From an uncultured Actinomycetes bacterium (GTDB lineage: Bacteria; Actinomycetota; UBA4738; HRBIN12), in assembly GCA_963704725.1 (NCBI GenBank), contig OY969934.1:512001-576000 (forward strand): DNA of 64,000 nt, given 5' to 3'. This document shows, piece by piece, positions 54,296-59,600 of the stretch (the stretch's first letter is position 1; each line of letters begins with the position of its first letter). Under the pieces are notes generated by a model, which was not told the DNA's origin, made no database searches, and saw nothing but the letters and a program-made list of their open reading frames with translations. Made by a program: the position numbers and the translations under genes.

Positions 54296-56484
54296 ATGAC
54301 CTCCTTCCTCTACCGGCTCGGCCGCGGGGCGGCCCGGCGCCGCTGGCTCACCATCGGGATCTGGGTGGCCGTGGTCGTCGCCATCTTCGGCGCCGGCTCG
54401 GCGCTCGGCGGCAAGCTCACCGACGACTTCAACATCCCCGACGCCGAGTCGCAGCGCGCGTACGACGTGCTCGCCGACCGCTTCCCCTCCGCCTCCGGCA
54501 CGTCGGCGGACATCGTGTTCCACGCCCGGGGCCGGGGGGTCCTGACCGACGACGCGAACGCGGCCGTCGTCGCCGATACCGTCGCCGCGCTCGCCGACCT
54601 CCCGCACGTGCTCCAGGTCACGAACCCGCTCGAGACGCCGGGGACGCTGTCCCAGAGCGAGGAGATCGGGTTCGCACAGGTCGCGTACGACCTGCCCGCC
54701 GATCAGCTCGGCACCGAGGCGTTCACACAGCTCGAGGACGCCGTCGAGGAGGTTCGGACCCCGCAGGTCCAGATCGAGATCGGGGGCGAGTTCGCCTCGT
54801 TCGGCGATCAGCCGGACACCGGGAGCTCCGAGGCGGTCGGCCTGCTCGCCGCGATGGTGATCCTGCTCGTCGCGTTCGGCTCGCTGGTGGCGATGGCCCT
54901 GCCCGTCGGGACGGCGGTGATCGGCCTGGCCACCGGCCTGGGACTCACGATCGTGGTGGCCTCGTTCGTGAACGTGCCCGTGTTCTCCACGACGCTCTCG
55001 ACGATGATCGGGCTCGGCGTGGGGATCGACTACGCCCTGTTCCTGGTCACGCGGTACCGGCAGAACCTGCAGGCCGGGATGGAGCCGCTGCACGCGATCG
55101 GCGTCGCGAACGCCACCTCCGGCCAGGCGGTCCTGTTCGCCGGCGCCACGGTGGTCCTGGCCATCCTCGGCCTGTGGATCTCGGGCATCGCGTTCGTGGG
55201 GATGATGGCCACGGCGACGGCGATCGTGGTGGCGGTGGCGGTGGCCGCGGCGATCACGCTCCTGCCGGCGCTGCTGGGGTTCGCGGGTCGGGCCATCGAC
55301 AAGCTGAGCGTGCACCGGATCCTCCGGCGGGCGGACGCCTCGTCCGAGCGCGAGAACATCTGGGCCCGGTGGGGGCGCCAGGTCGAGCGCCGTCCGTGGC
55401 GGTACTTCACCGCGGCCCTGCTCGTGCTCCTCGATCCTCGCGATCCCGTTCTTCTCGATGAAGCTGGGGATGCCCGACGACGGGACGGCGCCGACGTCGG
55501 AGTCGCGACGCCGCGCCTACGACCTGCTGGCCGAGGGGTTCGGCCCCGGGTTCAACGGGCCGCTGCTGCTCTCGGTGGAGATCCAGGACCCGGCCGCGCT
55601 CGGGCAGGCTCGACGGCCTCGTCGCGGCGCTCGGCGAGGCCGACGGCATCGCGGCGGTCTCGCCCGCGCAGCCCAACCAGCGCGGCGACGCCGCGGTCAT
55701 CCAGGTGATCCCGGCGACGTCGCCGCAGAACGACGCGACGACCACGCTCGTCCACCGGCTGCGCGACGAGGTCATCCCGCAGGCCACGCCGGACGGCGCG
55801 ATCGTGTACGTCGGCGGGCTCACCGCGACGTTCATCGACCTCTCCGAGCGCGTGACGAACGCCCTGCCCTGGTTCATCGGCGCCGTCGTCCTCCTGTCGT
55901 TCCTGCTCCTCATGGTCGTGTTCCGTTCGGTCCTGGTGCCGCTGAAGGCCGCGGTGATGAACCTGCTCTCGATCGGGGCCTCGTACGGCGTGATCGTGGC
56001 GATCTTCCAGTGGGGGTGGGGGCGGAGCCTGCTCGGCATCGAGAACCCGGTCCCCATCGTGAGCTTCGTCCCGATGATGATGTTCGCGGTGCTGTTCGGC
56101 CTGTCGATGGACTACGAGGTCTTCCTGCTCTCGCGGATCCGGGAGGAGTACCTGAAGACCCGGAACAACGTCGAGAGCGTGGTCACCGGTATCTCGACGA
56201 CGGCCCGAGTCATCACGAGCGCCGCGGTCATCATGATCGCGGTGTTCCTGAGCTTCGTGGCGCTGCCCGATCCCATCGCCAAGATGTTCGGTATCGGGCT
56301 GGCCACCGCCGTGCTCATCGACGCCACGGTCGTCCGGGTCGTCCTGGTCCCGGCGACGATGGTGCTGATCGGCGACGCCAACTGGTGGCTGCCCCGCTGG
56401 CTCGACCGCATCCTGCCGAAGATGCACCTCGAGGTGGACGTGGAGGAGCCCGAGGCCGCCCTCGAGCCCGTCTCCGTGCCGTAG
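54296..56484 (+). CDS. MMPL family transporter with two +1 frameshifts (~55432, ~55603)
   Basis: GLGVGIDYALF, SGQAVLFAG, GFGPGFNGPL, FGLSMDYEVFLLSR, DATVVR, NWWLPRWL. Confidence 0.9.
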
Positions 56485-56707
56485 GAGCCCGGGCCGCGAT
56501 CCGAAGACACCCGGAATGGGGTAGATAGCCGGCGCCCGCCGCAAGCCGATGCTCTTGGTAGGCCGGTCGTTCGACCAGGGCCGACCTCCAGCGTCAGGCT
56601 CGGTCCATCCTCGTGATGGCTCGGGTCCTAGGCTTCCCGGGTGCTCGAGCCTGGCGCCGGGGGCCGGCGTAACCGCGCCGGAGCCCTCTGCTAGAGTCCC
56701 GCCCCTC

Positions 56708-57086
56708 GTGGACTGGCGGCTCGAGCTCGTGCAGGTCCCCGTGTCGGACGTCGACCGGGCCAAGGCGTTCTACGTCGACCAGGTCGGCTTCCACGCGGAC
56801 CACGACCACCGAGTGAGACGACGAGATCCGCTTCGTCCAGCTCACGCCGCCCGGATCGGCGTGCTCGATCTCCCTGGCCAGCGGACCGCTCACCGCCGGG
56901 ATGGCTCCGGGCTCGGTGCAGGGGCTACAGGTCGTGGTGGCGGACATCGAGGCCGCCCGCGCCAAGCTCGTCGAGCGCGGCGTCGAGGTCAGCGAGGTCC
57001 AGCACTTCGACTGGGGCTCGTTCGTGTTCTTCAGCGACCCCGACGGCAACGGCTGGGCCGTGCAGGCCATCCCCGGCCGCAGCTAG
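56708..57086 (+). CDS. VOC/glyoxalase family protein with +1 frameshift near 56817
   Basis: VPVSDVDRAKAFY then IRFVQLTPPGS..FFSDPDGNGWAVQ in a shifted frame. Confidence 0.85.
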
Positions 57087-57127
57087 TCTGCGCCAGCCCC
57101 TGCCGCGCTCCCCGCGCCGACGCGACC

Positions 57128-57580
57128 CTAAGGCCCGCCTGCCGACAGCGCCTCCAGGATGCGAGCTCCATTCGCTTGAAGCGACGCAAGTGACTTCTCG
57201 ACGTAGCTGAAGACCGCTCCTTCGTACTCAGACGTTGCCTCGTCTCGCGGCAGGAGGATTGGGTCAAGAGCAGCCACCTCCTCCCCGGTTCCCGTTTCAA
57301 TCGTGAACCGCATGATGTCCCGATCGGTTGCATCAGCGAAGAACGGCCTGCCCCCTGCTGCCAATCGAACGGCATCGTTGGGTGCAACCACGAGAAGGAC
57401 AATGACATCCTCGAACTCCTGCGACTCACTTCGAGTGAACGTAGCGATCATTCGATATGTCTCGTTGCCTGGTGCGTCAGCACCAGCCCCACCAAGGATG
57501 TGAGGATCTTGCGCCCGAACTGTCGCCACTAGCTCGTCAAATGCTGGCTTCAGTCGATCAGTAACCTCCTGCCAATGCAC
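57128..57580 (-). CDS. Hypothetical protein of atypical (lower GC) composition
   Basis: SD GGAGGAGGA before GTG 57580; 150-aa ORF with many A/T-ending codons. Confidence 0.6.
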   Translation of the reverse strand: MHWQEVTDRLKPAFDELVATVRAQDPHILGGAGADAPGNETYRMIATFTRSESQEFEDVIVLLVVAPNDAVRLAAGGRPFFADATDRDIMRFTIETGTGEEVAALDPILLPRDEATSEYEGAVFSYVEKSLASLQANGARILEALSAGGP

Positions 57581-57836
57581 GGGTCCTCCTCCTCCGACGT
57601 GCACTGCTCCTCCGCCACCCGGGCATACATGACTCTGACTGGCTCCCTGGTTAGCAGGTTGGGGCTCGCCAAGGTGGGTCAGTCCCCGGGCGGCAGATCC
57701 TAGGGGATTGTCCTCATGCCGAGCAGCACCGACCGCGTCCACCGGGGTTTCTCGCTGAGGTCGTGCGCCAGCGAGGGAGTCCGGCAGGAGGCCCCCGGCA
57801 CTGTCCAGGGAGCTTGGGGCGTCTCGCCCGGCGTCG

Positions 57837-57865
57837 TTGCCATACCGCGGGACTTGCCGCACCAT
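57837..57865 (+). promoter_or_regulatory. Sigma-70-type promoter for candidate structured RNA
   Basis: TTGCCA-N17-CACCAT. Confidence 0.5.
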
Positions 57866-57871
57866 GGACGG

Positions 57872-58125
57872 CACGAGAGGAAGGAGGTGGTCCAACTGCA
57901 TAGACAGATGGAGACCCTCGAGGTGACTGGCTGCTGAGCCATCCCTCGCGGGCCGGGGCCACCGCCCCGCCCGTTTGCCGGGAGACCGGCAGAATCCAAC
58001 CAGCTCACCGACCTCACGCGCTCCGGTTGGTCTACCGGACGAAGCCTCGACGCAGGCCGAAGCGCACGTGAGGACCGAGTCACCGAACCGGGCCGGGCCC
58101 CGCGCGGGTCCGGCCCGTTCGCGTT
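57872..58125 (+). ncRNA. Candidate structured RNA with embedded small ORF and extended anti-16S complementarity
   Basis: Promoter, AAGGAGGTGGTCCAACTGCA, sORF 57896-57937, several hairpins including a GAGA tetraloop, terminal hairpin 58089-58117. Confidence 0.5.
58089..58120 (+). terminator. Terminator-like hairpin closing the candidate RNA
   Basis: CGGGCCGGGCCC / GGGTCCGGCCCG stem (one G-U pair) followed by TTC. Confidence 0.5.
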
Positions 58126-58223
58126 CGCCGACCGAGGCGCCCGGCCGCCGCCGAACGGTCCGATTGGTCTCCCGATCCTGCCCGACCGGCTCGTAGGCTC
58201 GGGGCGGGGGCCGACCAGGGAGG

Positions 58224-59600
58224 GTGGGGATGACCGCGAAGGCGAAGGAGGGAAGCGCCGCGCGTCCCGCGCGGGGCGGATCGCAGGACCTGTTCTACGC
58301 GTCGGGGGCCACGGCGGAGCTCCCGCGCATCGTCCGCGGTGAGGGCGTCTACCTCTGGGACGACGTCGGCAACCGGTACCTGGACGTGGCCTCGGGCGCG
58401 TTCCTGTCGAACCTCGGCCAGGGCAACGAGCGCGTCCTGCGAGCGATGCACGAGCAGGGCCGGCGGTTCACCTACTCGTACGTGCGCAACACGCGGCACG
58501 ACGCCAACGTCGAGCTCAGCGAACGCCTGGTCCGGCTCGCCGGTCCGGGCTTCGATCGCGTGTTCCTGTGCTCGAGCGGGTCCGATGCGATCGAGGCGGC
58601 CGTGCAGATCCTGCGCCAGCACGCGATCGCGATCGGGCAGCCGCAGCGCCATCGCGTGATCACGTTGATGCCGAGCTACCACGGGGGCACGCTCGCCACG
58701 ATCGGGCTGGGCGGGGATCGCGCCACCCCCGCGGTGTACGAGCCGATGGCGGTGTTCTCCGAGAAGGTGCCGGCGCCGCTCACGTGCCGGGCCGAGAGCC
58801 CGGAGGCGGCGGCCGTAGCCAGCGCTCGGGCGCTCGAGGAGACGATCCGGCGGGTGGGGCCGGAGTCCGTGCTCGCGTTCGTGATCGAGCCGGTCGGGGG
58901 CCAGTCGAGCGGGGCCAACGTGCCCGATCCCGTGTTCTTCGCCGAGGTGCGTCGCATCTGCACCGAGCACGGGATCCACCTGGTGTTCGACGAGATCGTC
59001 TCGGCCTTCCGGACGGGGCGGTTCCTCGCCGCCCACCACCACCCCTCCGCGCTGCCGGACGTCGTCGTGCTGGCCAAGGGGCTCGGAGCGGGCTACGCGC
59101 CGCTCGGCGCCGTGCTCGCCCCGGCCCGGCTCGTGGACCGGCTCGCCGAGACCACCGGCTTCCACGTCACCCGGTCCTCCGACGCCAACCCGATCGCCTG
59201 CGCCGCGGGGAGCGCGGTCCTGGACGAGGTCGTCGAACGCGGGCTCCTCGAGCGCGCCGGGGTGATCGGCGACCGGCTCCGGACCGGGTTGGAGCGCCTG
59301 GCCGCCCGCTCGCCGCTGGTGGGCGAGGTCCGAGGCCGGGGCATGCTCCTCGCGATCGAGCTGGTCCGCGACACGTCATCGATGGAGCGGTTCGATCCCG
59401 ACGTCGACCCGGCCGACCGGGTCCGCCATCACGGCGCTCGCCACGGGCTCCTCGTCTACTCGCGCCGCCAGAACGCCGGCACGTTCGGTGACTGGATCCT
59501 CGTGACCCCGCCGCTGGTGATCACCGAGGACGAGTGCGACGAGCTGCTCCTCGGCCTGGAGCGTGCCGTCGACGACGCCGCGGCCGACCTGCTGACCTGA
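58224..59600 (+). CDS. Class III PLP aminotransferase
   Basis: RGEGVYLWD..YLD, SGSDAIE, SYHGGT, IEPVGG, FDEI, AKGLGAGYAP, RGRGML. Confidence 0.92.
   Translation: MGMTAKAKEGSAARPARGGSQDLFYASGATAELPRIVRGEGVYLWDDVGNRYLDVASGAFLSNLGQGNERVLRAMHEQGRRFTYSYVRNTRHDANVELSERLVRLAGPGFDRVFLCSSGSDAIEAAVQILRQHAIAIGQPQRHRVITLMPSYHGGTLATIGLGGDRATPAVYEPMAVFSEKVPAPLTCRAESPEAAAVASARALEETIRRVGPESVLAFVIEPVGGQSSGANVPDPVFFAEVRRICTEHGIHLVFDEIVSAFRTGRFLAAHHHPSALPDVVVLAKGLGAGYAPLGAVLAPARLVDRLAETTGFHVTRSSDANPIACAAGSAVLDEVVERGLLERAGVIGDRLRTGLERLAARSPLVGEVRGRGMLLAIELVRDTSSMERFDPDVDPADRVRHHGARHGLLVYSRRQNAGTFGDWILVTPPLVITEDECDELLLGLERAVDDAAADLLT

What the first reader, a model, noticed from the sequence alone, without database searches (positions are those of the whole stretch)
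57837..58125. Unannotated ~250-nt structured RNA whose 5' end is complementary to 20 nt of the 16S rRNA 3' end and carries a micro-ORF
Seen: promoter TTGCCA-N17-CACCAT, then AAGGAGGTGGTCCAACTGCA (57881-57900). The reverse complement of the conserved 16S 3' end is AAGGAGGTGATCCA(G/A)CCGCA, so the match is 17-18 of 20 and two differences are G-U compatible. This is far longer than an ordinary SD. It precedes CTG-HRQMETLEVTGC-TGA (57896-57937; inner ATG 57908). Hairpins follow: CGGGGC/GCCCCG (57954-57969), TGCCGG-GAGA-CCGGCA (57976-57991), a junction closed by CCTCACG/CGTGAGG (58012-58073) containing TCCGGT/ACCGGA and GCCT/AGGC, and a terminal stem at 58089-58117. GGTGACT(GG) at 57922 can pair with either CCAGCTCACC (58000-58009) or AGTCACC (58078-58084), which is switch-like. 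Inference: a ribosome-binding or ribosome-sequestering sRNA, a dual-function peptide mRNA, or an attenuator for the downstream aminotransferase. I cannot assign it to a known family.
Basis: partly seen in the sequence, partly recalled or inferred. Interest (0 to 1): 0.8.

Follow-up and report, generated by a model that had tools for sequence, protein, structure and literature searches.

The report
Conserved ribosome-engaging small RNA gene
This is a stand-alone gene for a folded RNA of about 250 bases from a known but unexplained actinobacterial family; it carries a full docking site for the ribosome's 16S tail and a 13-codon mini-gene woven into its fold, so it probably works by engaging ribosomes rather than through its peptide.

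Summary
Window 57873-58125 (+) is a conserved, structured, self-contained RNA gene with a promoter, a micro-ORF and a terminator hairpin.

It is not family-less. It is a divergent member of Rfam RF02471 (Ms_IGR-5, an actinobacterial sRNA of unknown function), scoring 31.6 bits against a cut-off of 45. It is tied to full-scoring members by a model built from its own clade.

- **16S complement:** all 50 homologues carry 16-22 contiguous bases complementary to the 16S 3' tail. In the window this is 57878-57894, the only such site in the genome besides the 16S gene itself.
- **Micro-ORF:** 49 of 50 keep a 12-14-codon ORF, and all 50 have a stop at one fixed position. There is no amino-acid-level selection.
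- **Fold:** the ORF's 3' two-thirds pair with an anti-SD-like strand and with a hairpin loop (pseudoknot). Both pairings covary.
- **Context:** flanks are unrelated between genomes, so it is not an attenuator of the aminotransferase.

Most likely it is a ribosome-engaging, translated sRNA whose fold is remodelled by translation. That mechanism is inferred, not shown. Two earlier reports of this scan reached the same reading on other DNA.

The parts
57837..57842 (+). -35-like hexamer TTGCCA
   Evidence: Read. The TTGCC block is conserved in the alignment of 20 order-level homologues. The simple sigma-70 scan does not call it. Its promoter role is inferred from conservation and position.
57860..57865 (+). 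-10-like hexamer CACCAT (family pattern CA..AT here, TA...T in distant members)
   Evidence: It lies 17 nt after the -35-like hexamer and 7 nt before the first base that aligns to position 1 of the Rfam model. Inferred, not mapped.
57873..58125 (+). The RNA gene (inferred transcript of about 250 nt), a divergent member of Rfam RF02471 Ms_IGR-5
   Evidence: cmscan: 57873-58065 matches model positions 1-184 of 184 at 31.6 bits, E = 1.6e-5. DNA conservation of 74-86% in 24 of 40 relatives ends at about 58127. A DNA contig of a relative aligns only over 57860-58125 and is unlike the window on both sides (record 2). The transcript ends are inferred.
57878..57894 (+). 17-nt contiguous complement (two G-U) to the 3' tail of the genome's own 16S rRNA; an extended Shine-Dalgarno
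   Evidence: The 16-nt pattern is unique in the genome apart from the 16S gene. All 50 homologues have 16-22 nt.
57896..57937 (+). Micro-ORF: CTG start, 13 codons (LHRQMETLEVTGC as translated), TGA stop; in-frame ATG at 57908
   Evidence: In frame 0, 49 of 50 homologues have an NTG start 5-13 nt after GGAGG and 12-14 codons, and all 50 have the stop 15 nt after GAGGTG. The other frames give 6 of 50 and 1 of 50.
57912..57916 (+). 5' strand of pseudoknot PK1 (AGACC, ORF codons 6-7), pairs with 58029-58033
   Evidence: the covarying pair is G-C 21, A-U 14, C-G 5, so 40 of 46 are standard pairs, with 0 of 5000 shuffles as good; pair 43-180 is AU 13, CG 3, other 3.
58029..58033 (+). 3' strand of PK1 (GGTCT) in the loop of hairpin P4a
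57922..57930 (+). 5' strand of long-range helix H2 (GGTGACTGG, ORF codons 9-12; itself SD-like)
   Evidence: pair 83-239 is AU 32, GC 11, GU 4; pair 85-234 is UA 42, CG 4; pair 87-232 is GC 25, CG 6, AU 4, UG 3, UA 1.
58000..58009 (+). 3' strand of H2 (CCAG-C-TCACC, with C 58004 bulged); its TCACC core is shared with the 16S tail
   Evidence: The bulged base varies freely (C, T, A or G) in the alignment.
57949..57973 (+). Hairpin P2 (57949-57957 with 57965-57973)
   Evidence: all 8 pairs show changes on both sides in the 48-sequence alignment.
57977..57990 (+). Hairpin P3 (GCCGG / CCGGC)
   Evidence: Invariant in the order. 4 of 5 pairs change on both sides across the phylum set.
57992..57999 (+). 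Conserved, predicted single-stranded GAATCCAA between P3 and H2
   Evidence: Near-invariant. Unpaired in the models. Role unknown.
58012..58073 (+). 3' domain: closing helix 58012-58018/58067-58073 holding hairpin P4a (58022-58027/58034-58039) and hairpin P4b (58044-58047/58054-58057)
   Evidence: closing helix 5 of 8 pairs with changes on both sides, P4b 3 of 3, P4a 1 of 4.
58086..58127 (+). Terminator-like GC-rich hairpin (stem 58089-58117) and T-poor tail TTCGCGTTCG
   Evidence: 10 of 13 pairs change on both sides. The simple terminator scan does not call it because the tail has too few T. DNA conservation stops here.

Best explanation
Window 57873-58125 (+) is a stand-alone, single-copy gene for a pseudoknotted small RNA of about 250 nt. 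It is a divergent member of the actinobacterial sRNA family Ms_IGR-5 (Rfam RF02471), whose function is unknown. Shown here: its exposed 5' end is complementary to the whole single-stranded 3' tail of 16S rRNA (16-17 nt). An NTG codon follows 8-9 nt after GGAGG and opens a 13-codon frame that ends at a family-wide fixed stop. From codon 6 onward the frame is base-paired to two downstream partners: a hairpin loop (PK1) and an anti-SD-like strand (H2). Inferred: a 30S subunit docks on the extended SD, and the initiation complex fits on the unpaired first five codons with its leading edge against PK1. Elongation through the micro-ORF then has to melt PK1 and H2. Each round of translation would therefore switch the RNA between a closed fold and an open form that exposes the TCACC strand, the GAATCC stretch and the hairpin loop. 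The selected feature is the act of ribosome binding and translation, not the peptide. What the open or ribosome-bound form then does (titrating or parking ribosomes, pairing with other RNAs, or controlling its own stability) is not known. The confidence given is for the whole statement: I put the identity (gene, family, stand-alone) at about 0.9 and the translation-remodelling mechanism at about 0.45.
For: **Family membership**
- Full-length match to RF02471, E = 1.6e-5.
- Model R1, built from this clade, finds 48 of 50 loci. These include 17 of the 19 loci that score above Rfam's cut-off.

**Stand-alone gene**
- Flanks are unrelated in 20 loci at +-1.5 kb and in 11 genomes at +-8 kb, except between close kin.
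- It is found in 110 of 151 genomes of the order, nearly always once.

**Ribosome docking site**
- All 50 homologues have a 16-22-nt tail complement, and the site is unique in this genome.
- The invariant GGTCC at its 3' end does not covary with the ORF partner (C-G 22, C-A 17, C-C 7). The hairpin loop does covary with it. This leaves pairing with 16S as the best reason for the invariance.

**Micro-ORF**
- 49 of 50 keep start, frame and length, and all 50 keep the stop position, against 6 of 50 and 1 of 50 in the other two frames.
- Stops are TGA 23, TAG 23, TAA 4, never TGG. Lengths are 12, 13 or 14 codons only.
- There is no third-position excess: entropy by codon position is 0.97/1.06/0.89 for codons 2-7 and 0.36/0.59/0.37 for codons 8-13.

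**Fold**
- 95.0% of cells are paired against 84.6% in shuffles, and 16 of 26 pairs change on both sides.
- On a MAFFT alignment not fitted to the structure: 94.8% against 89.2%, 22 of 55 pairs, and slid controls of 28-50%.

**Literature**
- Passages seen report ribosome footprints on MS_IGR-5 homologues in M. abscessus and M. smegmatis (PMC4974804).
- Passages seen report discrete transcripts in S. lividans and S. avermitilis (PMC8079986, PMC8780764).

**Weak hint of expression**
- Short contigs of relatives cover 57897-58085 in 3 metatranscriptomes from 3 studies.
Against: - No RNA data exist for this genome, so the transcript, its ends and its translation are all inferred.
- The window's start codon is CTG, as in 15 of 50 homologues. 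A passage of PMC9094748 reports ATG, GTG and TTG but not CTG enriched at mapped start sites in M. tuberculosis. One homologue (L046) has only ATA in frame.
- Single-sequence folding does not predict an especially open SD: mean unpaired probability is 0.29 against 0.35 for the whole RNA.
- RNAalifold prefers a different pairing, SD1 with 58000-58007 and SD2 in a local hairpin with TCCCTC. It cannot be excluded as an alternative conformer because those columns barely vary in this order.
- The same 13-mer AAGGAGGTGGTCC also serves as an ordinary SD of a roughly 50-codon gene elsewhere in this genome. A long SD alone therefore does not imply a special mechanism.
- The stop and start triplets could be kept partly for structural reasons.
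- The sequences are related, so the counts overstate the number of independent events.
Confidence: 0.55

Rival explanations
1. Ribosome clamp or sponge without productive translation. The 16-17-nt duplex with the 16S tail, together with the pseudoknot just downstream, holds a 30S or 70S particle on the RNA. This would park or titrate ribosomes, or mask their anti-SD.
For: - The tail complement is family-wide and unique in the genome.
- Weak start codons are frequent: CTG in 15 of 50 and ATA in one.
- PK1 begins 16 nt after the first base of the start codon (coordinates). From general knowledge of toeprints, that is about where an initiating ribosome ends.
- Ribosome footprints are reported on homologues (PMC4974804, passage seen).
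Against: - A fixed in-frame stop using all three stop codons, and ORF lengths only in multiples of three, are not needed if nothing is translated.
- One sRNA gene per genome is unlikely to titrate thousands of ribosomes unless it is very abundant, and no abundance data exist for this organism.
Confidence: 0.13
2. Ordinary base-pairing sRNA. It acts in trans on mRNAs through its conserved single-stranded parts (GAATCC, the TCACC strand, the hairpin loop), and the SD-like 5' end and the ORF are secondary.
For: - It has stand-alone sRNA architecture with its own promoter and terminator.
- The family was first recovered as an sRNA. The Hfq pull-down origin is known to me only from the reference title seen (Li et al. 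2013); the paper itself is not held.
- Anti-SD-like C/U-rich stretches are typical seeds (general knowledge).
Against: It does not explain the conserved start, frame and stop or the 16-nt tail complement. No target prediction was attempted.
Confidence: 0.15
3. Small-protein gene or dual-function RNA: the 13-residue peptide is itself a functional product.
For: An ORF with a strong SD is conserved across the phylum. The C-terminal ...E-V-(T/A)-x-x is kept.
Against: - Third codon positions are not more variable than the others.
- GAG and GTG are invariant at the nucleotide level, and those bases are paired in H2.
- The N-terminal half and the last three residues differ between lineages.
- At 12-14 residues it is shorter than the dual-function sRNA peptides I recall, SgrT and SR1P. 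Both are named in a passage of PMC11133741 seen.
Confidence: 0.1
4. Cis-acting leader or attenuator of the downstream class-III aminotransferase gene (58224-59600).
For: It lies about 100 nt upstream on the same strand and ends in a terminator-like hairpin.
Against: - No aminotransferase or any other shared gene follows the RNA in the relatives.
- The nearest downstream high-GC3 ORF is on the opposite strand in L013, L015, L017, L018 and L020.
Confidence: 0.02
5. Not an RNA at all: the conservation reflects the 5' end of the minus-strand ORF 57128-57901, or chance.
For: A 257-codon ORF overlaps 57837-57901 on the other strand. A 245-residue form of it is in the protein collection.
Against: - That protein has no relative other than itself among proteins of 141-450 residues and no Pfam match.
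- Conservation in the relatives starts at the promoter and runs to 58127, well beyond the ORF's end.
- Covariation supports RNA helices.
Confidence: 0.01

Closest known systems
Rfam RF02471, Ms_IGR-5 (Actinobacteria sRNA; M. smegmatis IGR-5 = ncMSMEG15794c)
   Same: - End-to-end alignment to the model.
- Same 5' block (..GGAAGGAGGTGGTCC), same GAGGTG.CTG block, same AATCC...CAG.CACC block and same hairpin with a GTCC-type loop.
- Same micro-ORF layout in full-scoring members such as L022-L029.
   Different: - It scores 31.6 bits, below the 45-bit cut-off, and is missed by the stricter whole-genome search.
- In this order the middle hairpins differ, the 3' domain is a three-way junction rather than one long hairpin, and a terminator hairpin lies beyond the end of the Rfam model.
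- None of the papers found by my searches, seen as listings and passages, assigns a function or describes the tail complement, the micro-ORF or the pseudoknot.
Dual-function sRNAs (SgrS/SgrT, SR1/SR1P; named in a passage of PMC11133741 seen, details recalled)
   Same: A stand-alone small RNA that carries a translated short ORF as well as conserved RNA structure.
   Different: In those cases the peptide is a functional protein of tens of residues, and the base-pairing and coding parts are largely separate (recalled). Here the ORF has 12-14 codons, shows no amino-acid-level selection, and is itself the paired part of the fold.
tmRNA (recalled, not tested here)
   Same: A stable, pseudoknot-rich RNA that engages the ribosome and contains a short reading frame whose translation, rather than a free-standing protein, is the point.
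   Different: tmRNA has a tRNA-like domain, no SD and no start codon, and enters stalled ribosomes with SmpB (recalled). This RNA has a full SD and an NTG start, and nothing tRNA-like was seen. The Rfam scans gave no tmRNA match in the window.
Leader-peptide attenuators and regulatory uORFs (general knowledge; PMC12121999 seen in a search listing only)
   Same: A short ORF whose translation remodels downstream RNA structure that ends in a terminator hairpin, with peptide identity largely irrelevant.
   Different: Those control the gene that follows them. Here no gene is consistently downstream.
Extended Shine-Dalgarno usage (PMC13009471, S. aureus; search listing and start of abstract only)
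   Same: SD:anti-SD pairing longer than the classical core.
   Different: This one spans the entire 16-nt tail and is invariant across a phylum-wide RNA family. Whether the full duplex forms on the ribosome is untested.

Membership tests
Rfam RF02471 (Ms_IGR-5) | Bit score at or above the curated gathering cut-off (45 bits) | tested here: not met
   31.6 bits, E = 1.6e-5. There was no hit in the gathering-threshold scan or in the stricter whole-genome search of G000.
Rfam RF02471 (Ms_IGR-5) | Alignment over the whole model with the conserved sequence blocks | tested here: met
   Model positions 1-184 of 184 align to 57873-58065. The 5' SD block, the GAGGTG.CTG block and the AATCC...CAG.CACC block all align.
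Rfam RF02471 (Ms_IGR-5) | Homology chain to members that pass the cut-off | tested here: met
   Model R1, built only from this clade, finds 48 of 50 loci. These include 17 of the 19 loci above Rfam's cut-off, for example L030 at 73.4 bits and L022 at 23.3 bits with E = 0.0018; L027 and L038 are missed.
Rfam RF02471 (Ms_IGR-5) | Shared secondary structure supported by covariation | tested here: met
   with PK1. Note that my structure (H2 plus PK1) differs in part from the Rfam consensus line shown.
Rfam RF02471 (Ms_IGR-5) | Expressed as a discrete small transcript | not testable with these tools
   No sequencing run holds this genome. Only contigs of relatives in 3 metatranscriptomes were seen. 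Family members are reported as transcripts in S. lividans and S. avermitilis (passages seen).
Dual-function sRNA (peptide is functional) | Purifying selection on the amino-acid sequence | tested here: not met
   Entropy by codon position is 0.97/1.06/0.89 for codons 2-7 and 0.36/0.59/0.37 for codons 8-13, over 30 distinct 13-codon ORFs.
Leader-peptide attenuator | A conserved regulated gene immediately downstream on the same strand | tested here: not met

The most novel reading that the evidence does not exclude
Ms_IGR-5 RNAs are dedicated ribosome regulators. The RNA clamps the entire 16S 3' tail with a 16-nt duplex and parks the ribosome against a pseudoknot. Its own anti-SD look-alike strand (..CAG.TCACC) is released only while a ribosome occupies the micro-ORF. 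This would let an actinobacterial cell sense or set the pool of free, initiation-competent ribosomes. One possible use is holding ribosomes in reserve; another is shifting the balance between SD-led mRNAs and the leaderless mRNAs that are common in this phylum (PMC4633059, title and abstract seen).
Probability: 0.18. Interest if true: 0.85.

Novelty: new member of a known kind. Interest (0 to 1): 0.55.

Why it matters
Ms_IGR-5 has been in Rfam for over a decade as an sRNA without a function. It is one of the few sRNAs shared by distant actinobacterial lineages: 43 of 151 sampled genomes of the phylum match the Rfam model, and 110 of 151 genomes of this order match a clade model.

The anatomy found here turns "unknown sRNA" into a concrete hypothesis that can be tested cheaply. 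That anatomy is a complement to the whole 16S tail, a frame-conserved micro-ORF without peptide selection, and two covarying long-range pairings that tie the ORF into the fold. The hypothesis is that the RNA works through the ribosome.

It also shows that Rfam's current model misses a whole order of hosts. The RNA's promoter is overlapped by an orphan ORF on the opposite strand (57128-57901); a 245-residue form of that ORF is in the protein collection and would, by my reckoning, start inside the promoter region.

Tried and rejected
- **Expression in this organism.** No public run holds this genome; the best share of words was 0.10. Laying 3 metatranscriptomes and 1 DNA run gave only contigs of relatives over the conserved core. 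The uncovered flanks say nothing.
- **SD accessibility by partition-function folding of 49 homologues**. Inconclusive: 0.29 against 0.35.
- **Simple promoter and terminator scans.** 0 and 0 sites. CACCAT has too few matches to TATAAT and the tail has too few T.
- **Mobile-element origin.** No match in 72,556 plasmid or 50,697 phage records.
- **Homologues of the overlapping minus-strand ORF.** Only itself (lengths 141-450 only). No Pfam match.
- **The 20-mer as a statistical anomaly.** Fails the reversed-pattern control.
- **Second switch partner AGTCACC at 58078-58084.** Not conserved.
- **A 5' hairpin GGTC (57889-57892) with GACC (57913-57916).** It was included in model R1. Its fifth pair does not covary, whereas the 3' hairpin loop does, so I prefer PK1. 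The two may still be alternatives.
- **RNAalifold's helix of the SD with 58000-58007, plus a local hairpin of 57920-57932 with 57937-57948**. No covariation, and 4 of 19 sequences break at the variable base. Kept only as a possible alternative conformer.
- **Literature.** Li et al. 2013 (PMC3527728) is not held. Supplements are closed; Suppl. Table S4 and Figs S1-S2 of PMC10454040 and Additional file 2 of PMC4974804 may hold expression and footprint data for IGR-5 that I could not see. Searches found no functional study of the family.
- **Earlier notes near this place.** None.
Full report
**What is there.**
- I read 57400-58700.
- The genome has one 16S rRNA gene, which ends ...TGCGGCTGGATCACCTCCTTTCT.
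- Window 57881-57900 is therefore 17 of 20 identical to the reverse complement of that end. Two of the three differences still allow G-U pairs, as claimed.
- The window is G000:C1:512001-576000 of a single 3.45-Mb contig with about 70-78% G+C locally.

**Is it more than chance?**
- The 20-mer alone is not. With up to 3 mismatches it occurs once outside the 16S gene, while the reversed control pattern occurs 3 times.
- The contiguous block is different. 57878-57894 (AGGAAGGAGGTGGTCCA) pairs without interruption, including two G-U, with the last 16-17 bases of 16S.
- The pattern RGRRRGGAGGTGRTCC occurs without mismatch only twice in the genome: in the 16S gene itself and here.
- The shorter 13-mer AAGGAGGTGGTCC occurs twice. 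The second copy sits 1 nt before the ATG of a small ORF of about 50 codons. A long SD is therefore also used by an ordinary gene.

**It is a conserved RNA gene.**
- A DNA search with 57830-58230 in 40 relatives gave 25 strong places (E <= 8e-14, 74-86% identity) in 24 genomes of the same genus, family and order. The matches cover about 57855-58127. The other hits were short GC-rich matches.
- The alignment of 20 homologues shows a conserved TTGCC / CA..AT promoter-like pair, an invariant AGGAGGTGGTCC, several hairpins with compensating changes, and a terminal GC-rich hairpin. Similarity stops after that hairpin.
- GC3 shows no coding signal across 57900-58200.
- The RNA folds better than shuffles: -132.3 kcal/mol, z = -3.91.

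**Known family.**
- The gathering-threshold Rfam scan of the whole window found nothing.
- The permissive scan of 57750-58250 gave 4 matches up to E = 10. The only credible one is RF02471, Ms_IGR-5, 'Actinobacteria sRNA': 57873-58065, model 1-184 of 184, 31.6 bits against a cut-off of 45, E = 1.6e-5.
- The Rfam model finds the family in 43 of 151 sampled genomes of the phylum, 19 of them above the cut-off, and in 0 of 14 control genomes. With its stricter filters it misses this genome.
- I built a model (R1) from 19 sequences of this clade only. It recovers 48 of the 50 loci I held, including 17 of the 19 loci above Rfam's cut-off (L027 and L038 are missed). That closes the homology chain.
- In the order, R1 finds the gene in 110 of 151 genomes (70 of 91 good-quality ones), almost always once.

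**What the papers say (passages seen only).**
- IGR-5 of M. smegmatis overlaps ncMSMEG15794c (PMC10454040).
- An Ms_IGR-5 homologue is RNA-seq-validated in S. lividans (PMC8079986).
- It is one of two sRNA transcription units of S. avermitilis with an Rfam match (PMC8780764).
- MS_IGR-5 homologues carry ribosome footprints in M. abscessus and M. smegmatis (PMC4974804).
- I found no functional study. The original paper is not held, and supplements are closed.

**Not a leader of the aminotransferase.**
- The downstream gene (58224-59600) is a class-III aminotransferase.
- Among 20 loci, flanks of +-1.5 kb share almost nothing: 3 protein pairs by blastp and 6 flank pairs by tblastx.
- Among 11 better-assembled genomes, +-8 kb flanks share nothing collinear except in one same-genus pair, L057/L058.
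- In L013, L015, L017, L018 and L020 the nearest downstream high-GC3 ORF is on the opposite strand.
- A 1461-nt DNA contig from a metagenome aligns only over 57860-58125 and diverges on both sides (record 2).
- There is no match in plasmid or phage collections.

**The micro-ORF is real as a frame.**
- I examined 50 homologues: 20 from the order and 30 from the phylum search.
- In the frame set by the invariant GAGGTG, 49 have an NTG codon 5-13 nt after GGAGG: TTG 26, CTG 15, ATG 4, GTG 4.
- The ORF is 12, 13 or 14 codons long (10, 36 and 3 sequences).
- The stop lies exactly 15 nt after the first base of GAGGTG in all 50: TGA 23, TAG 23, TAA 4.
- The other two frames give 6 of 50 and 1 of 50. 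The one exception, L046, has only ATA in frame.
- Variation is not concentrated at third codon positions, and GAG GTG never varies. Frame, start and stop are selected; the peptide is not.
- A weak point is that the window's start is CTG. A passage in PMC9094748 reports no CTG enrichment at mapped M. tuberculosis start sites.

**The fold.**
- GGTGACTGG (57922-57930, ORF codons 9-12) pairs with CCAG-C-TCACC (58000-58009). Across the family the two strands change together, for example GGTGGCTGC with GCAGCCACC and GGTGACCGG with CCGGTTCACC.
- On the 48-sequence alignment fitted to R1, 95.0% of cells pair against 84.6% in shuffles. 16 of 26 pairs change on both sides, and slid controls give 26-49%.
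- A second long-range pairing links AGACC (57912-57916, codons 6-7) to GGTCT (58029-58033) in the loop of the 3' hairpin. The outer pair is G-C in 21, A-U in 14 and C-G in 5 of 46 sequences scored, with 0 of 5000 shuffles as good. Four sequences were dropped by the automatic hairpin finder, and a few others were mis-picked.
- By contrast, the invariant 5' GGTCC does not follow that base: C-G 22, C-A 17, C-C 7.
- With both pairings written on the MAFFT alignment of 19 full-length sequences, which is not fitted to any structure, 94.8% of cells pair against 89.2% in shuffles. 22 of 55 pairs change on both sides, and slid controls give 28-50%.
- The 3' junction and the terminator stem carry most of the compensating changes in this order.

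**Reading.**
- *Shown:* the gene, its family, the tail complement, the conserved frame, the two ORF-locking pairings and the lack of synteny.
- *Inferred:* the exposed 5' end docks a 30S subunit. The first five codons are free. PK1 starts 16 nt after the start codon's first base, roughly where an initiating ribosome ends (general knowledge of toeprints). Translation must melt PK1 and then H2, and it ends 9 nt after an internal SD-like GAGGTG.
- I therefore read it as a ribosome-engaging, translated sRNA whose conformation is set by ribosome occupancy. What the open form does is unknown.
- Because the 5' GGTCC is invariant yet not explained by intramolecular covariation, pairing with the GGATC of the 16S tail is the best remaining reason for it.
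- A pure ribosome clamp, a classical base-pairing sRNA and a functional peptide remain as rivals.

**Caveats.**
- No RNA data exist for this organism. The metatranscriptome contigs belong to relatives and could include DNA.
- Folding does not predict an open SD.
- The sequences are related, so counts are not independent events.
- Genomes flagged unpublished are included in the tallies. Four of my 50 sequences come from them: L014 = G011, L021 = G029, L039 = G057, L049 = G085. Leaving these four out changes the ORF count to 45 of 46 and alters no conclusion. A1 holds L021, and A3 holds all four.
- Two earlier reports of this scan on other genomes reached the same family assignment and a similar reading. 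I tested the claims independently here.

Noticed in passing
window 57128-57901 (-): A 257-codon ORF of lower G+C (58-63% over 57100-57700) overlaps the RNA's promoter and first 29 bases. It has no Pfam match, and among proteins of 141-450 residues the only relative found is its own 245-residue record. An in-frame GTG at 57580 preceded by GGAGGAGGAGGA suggests the real gene, if there is one, may be only about 150 codons long.
   Followed up: partly
L052 (G000:C1:364500-364900), minus strand, outside the window: The only other exact AAGGAGGTGGTCC in the genome lies 1 nt before the ATG of a small ORF of about 50 codons (MIKEVQCECGFYARG...). The same very long SD is therefore used by an ordinary small-protein gene.
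   Followed up: partly
L053-L063 and L002-L021: A single-copy RNA gene that is 78-87% identical across these 11 genomes of the order sits in unrelated neighbourhoods in almost every genome examined (+-8 kb in 11 genomes). This is unusual for a conserved gene and is unexplained. No plasmid or phage copy was found.
   Followed up: partly
G287 (three places), G009, G060, G236, G250 (two places each); A few genomes hold two or three copies of the RNA gene. In G287, two copies on different contigs have identical scores. Duplication, strain mixture and assembly redundancy were not told apart.
   Followed up: no
window 57992-57999 and 58028-58033: GAATCC between P3 and H2 is nearly invariant across the phylum and is unpaired in every model. 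The 3' hairpin loop repeats the GGTC(C/T) of the 5' SD extension, so both could compete for the same GACC in the ORF.
   Followed up: partly
window 54296-55708 (+) and 56549-57193 (+): Upstream neighbours include an MMPL-family transporter ORF (E = 3.9e-62) and an ORF with weak, sub-threshold glyoxalase-type matches. They share no relatives with the flanks of the RNA in other genomes.
   Followed up: no
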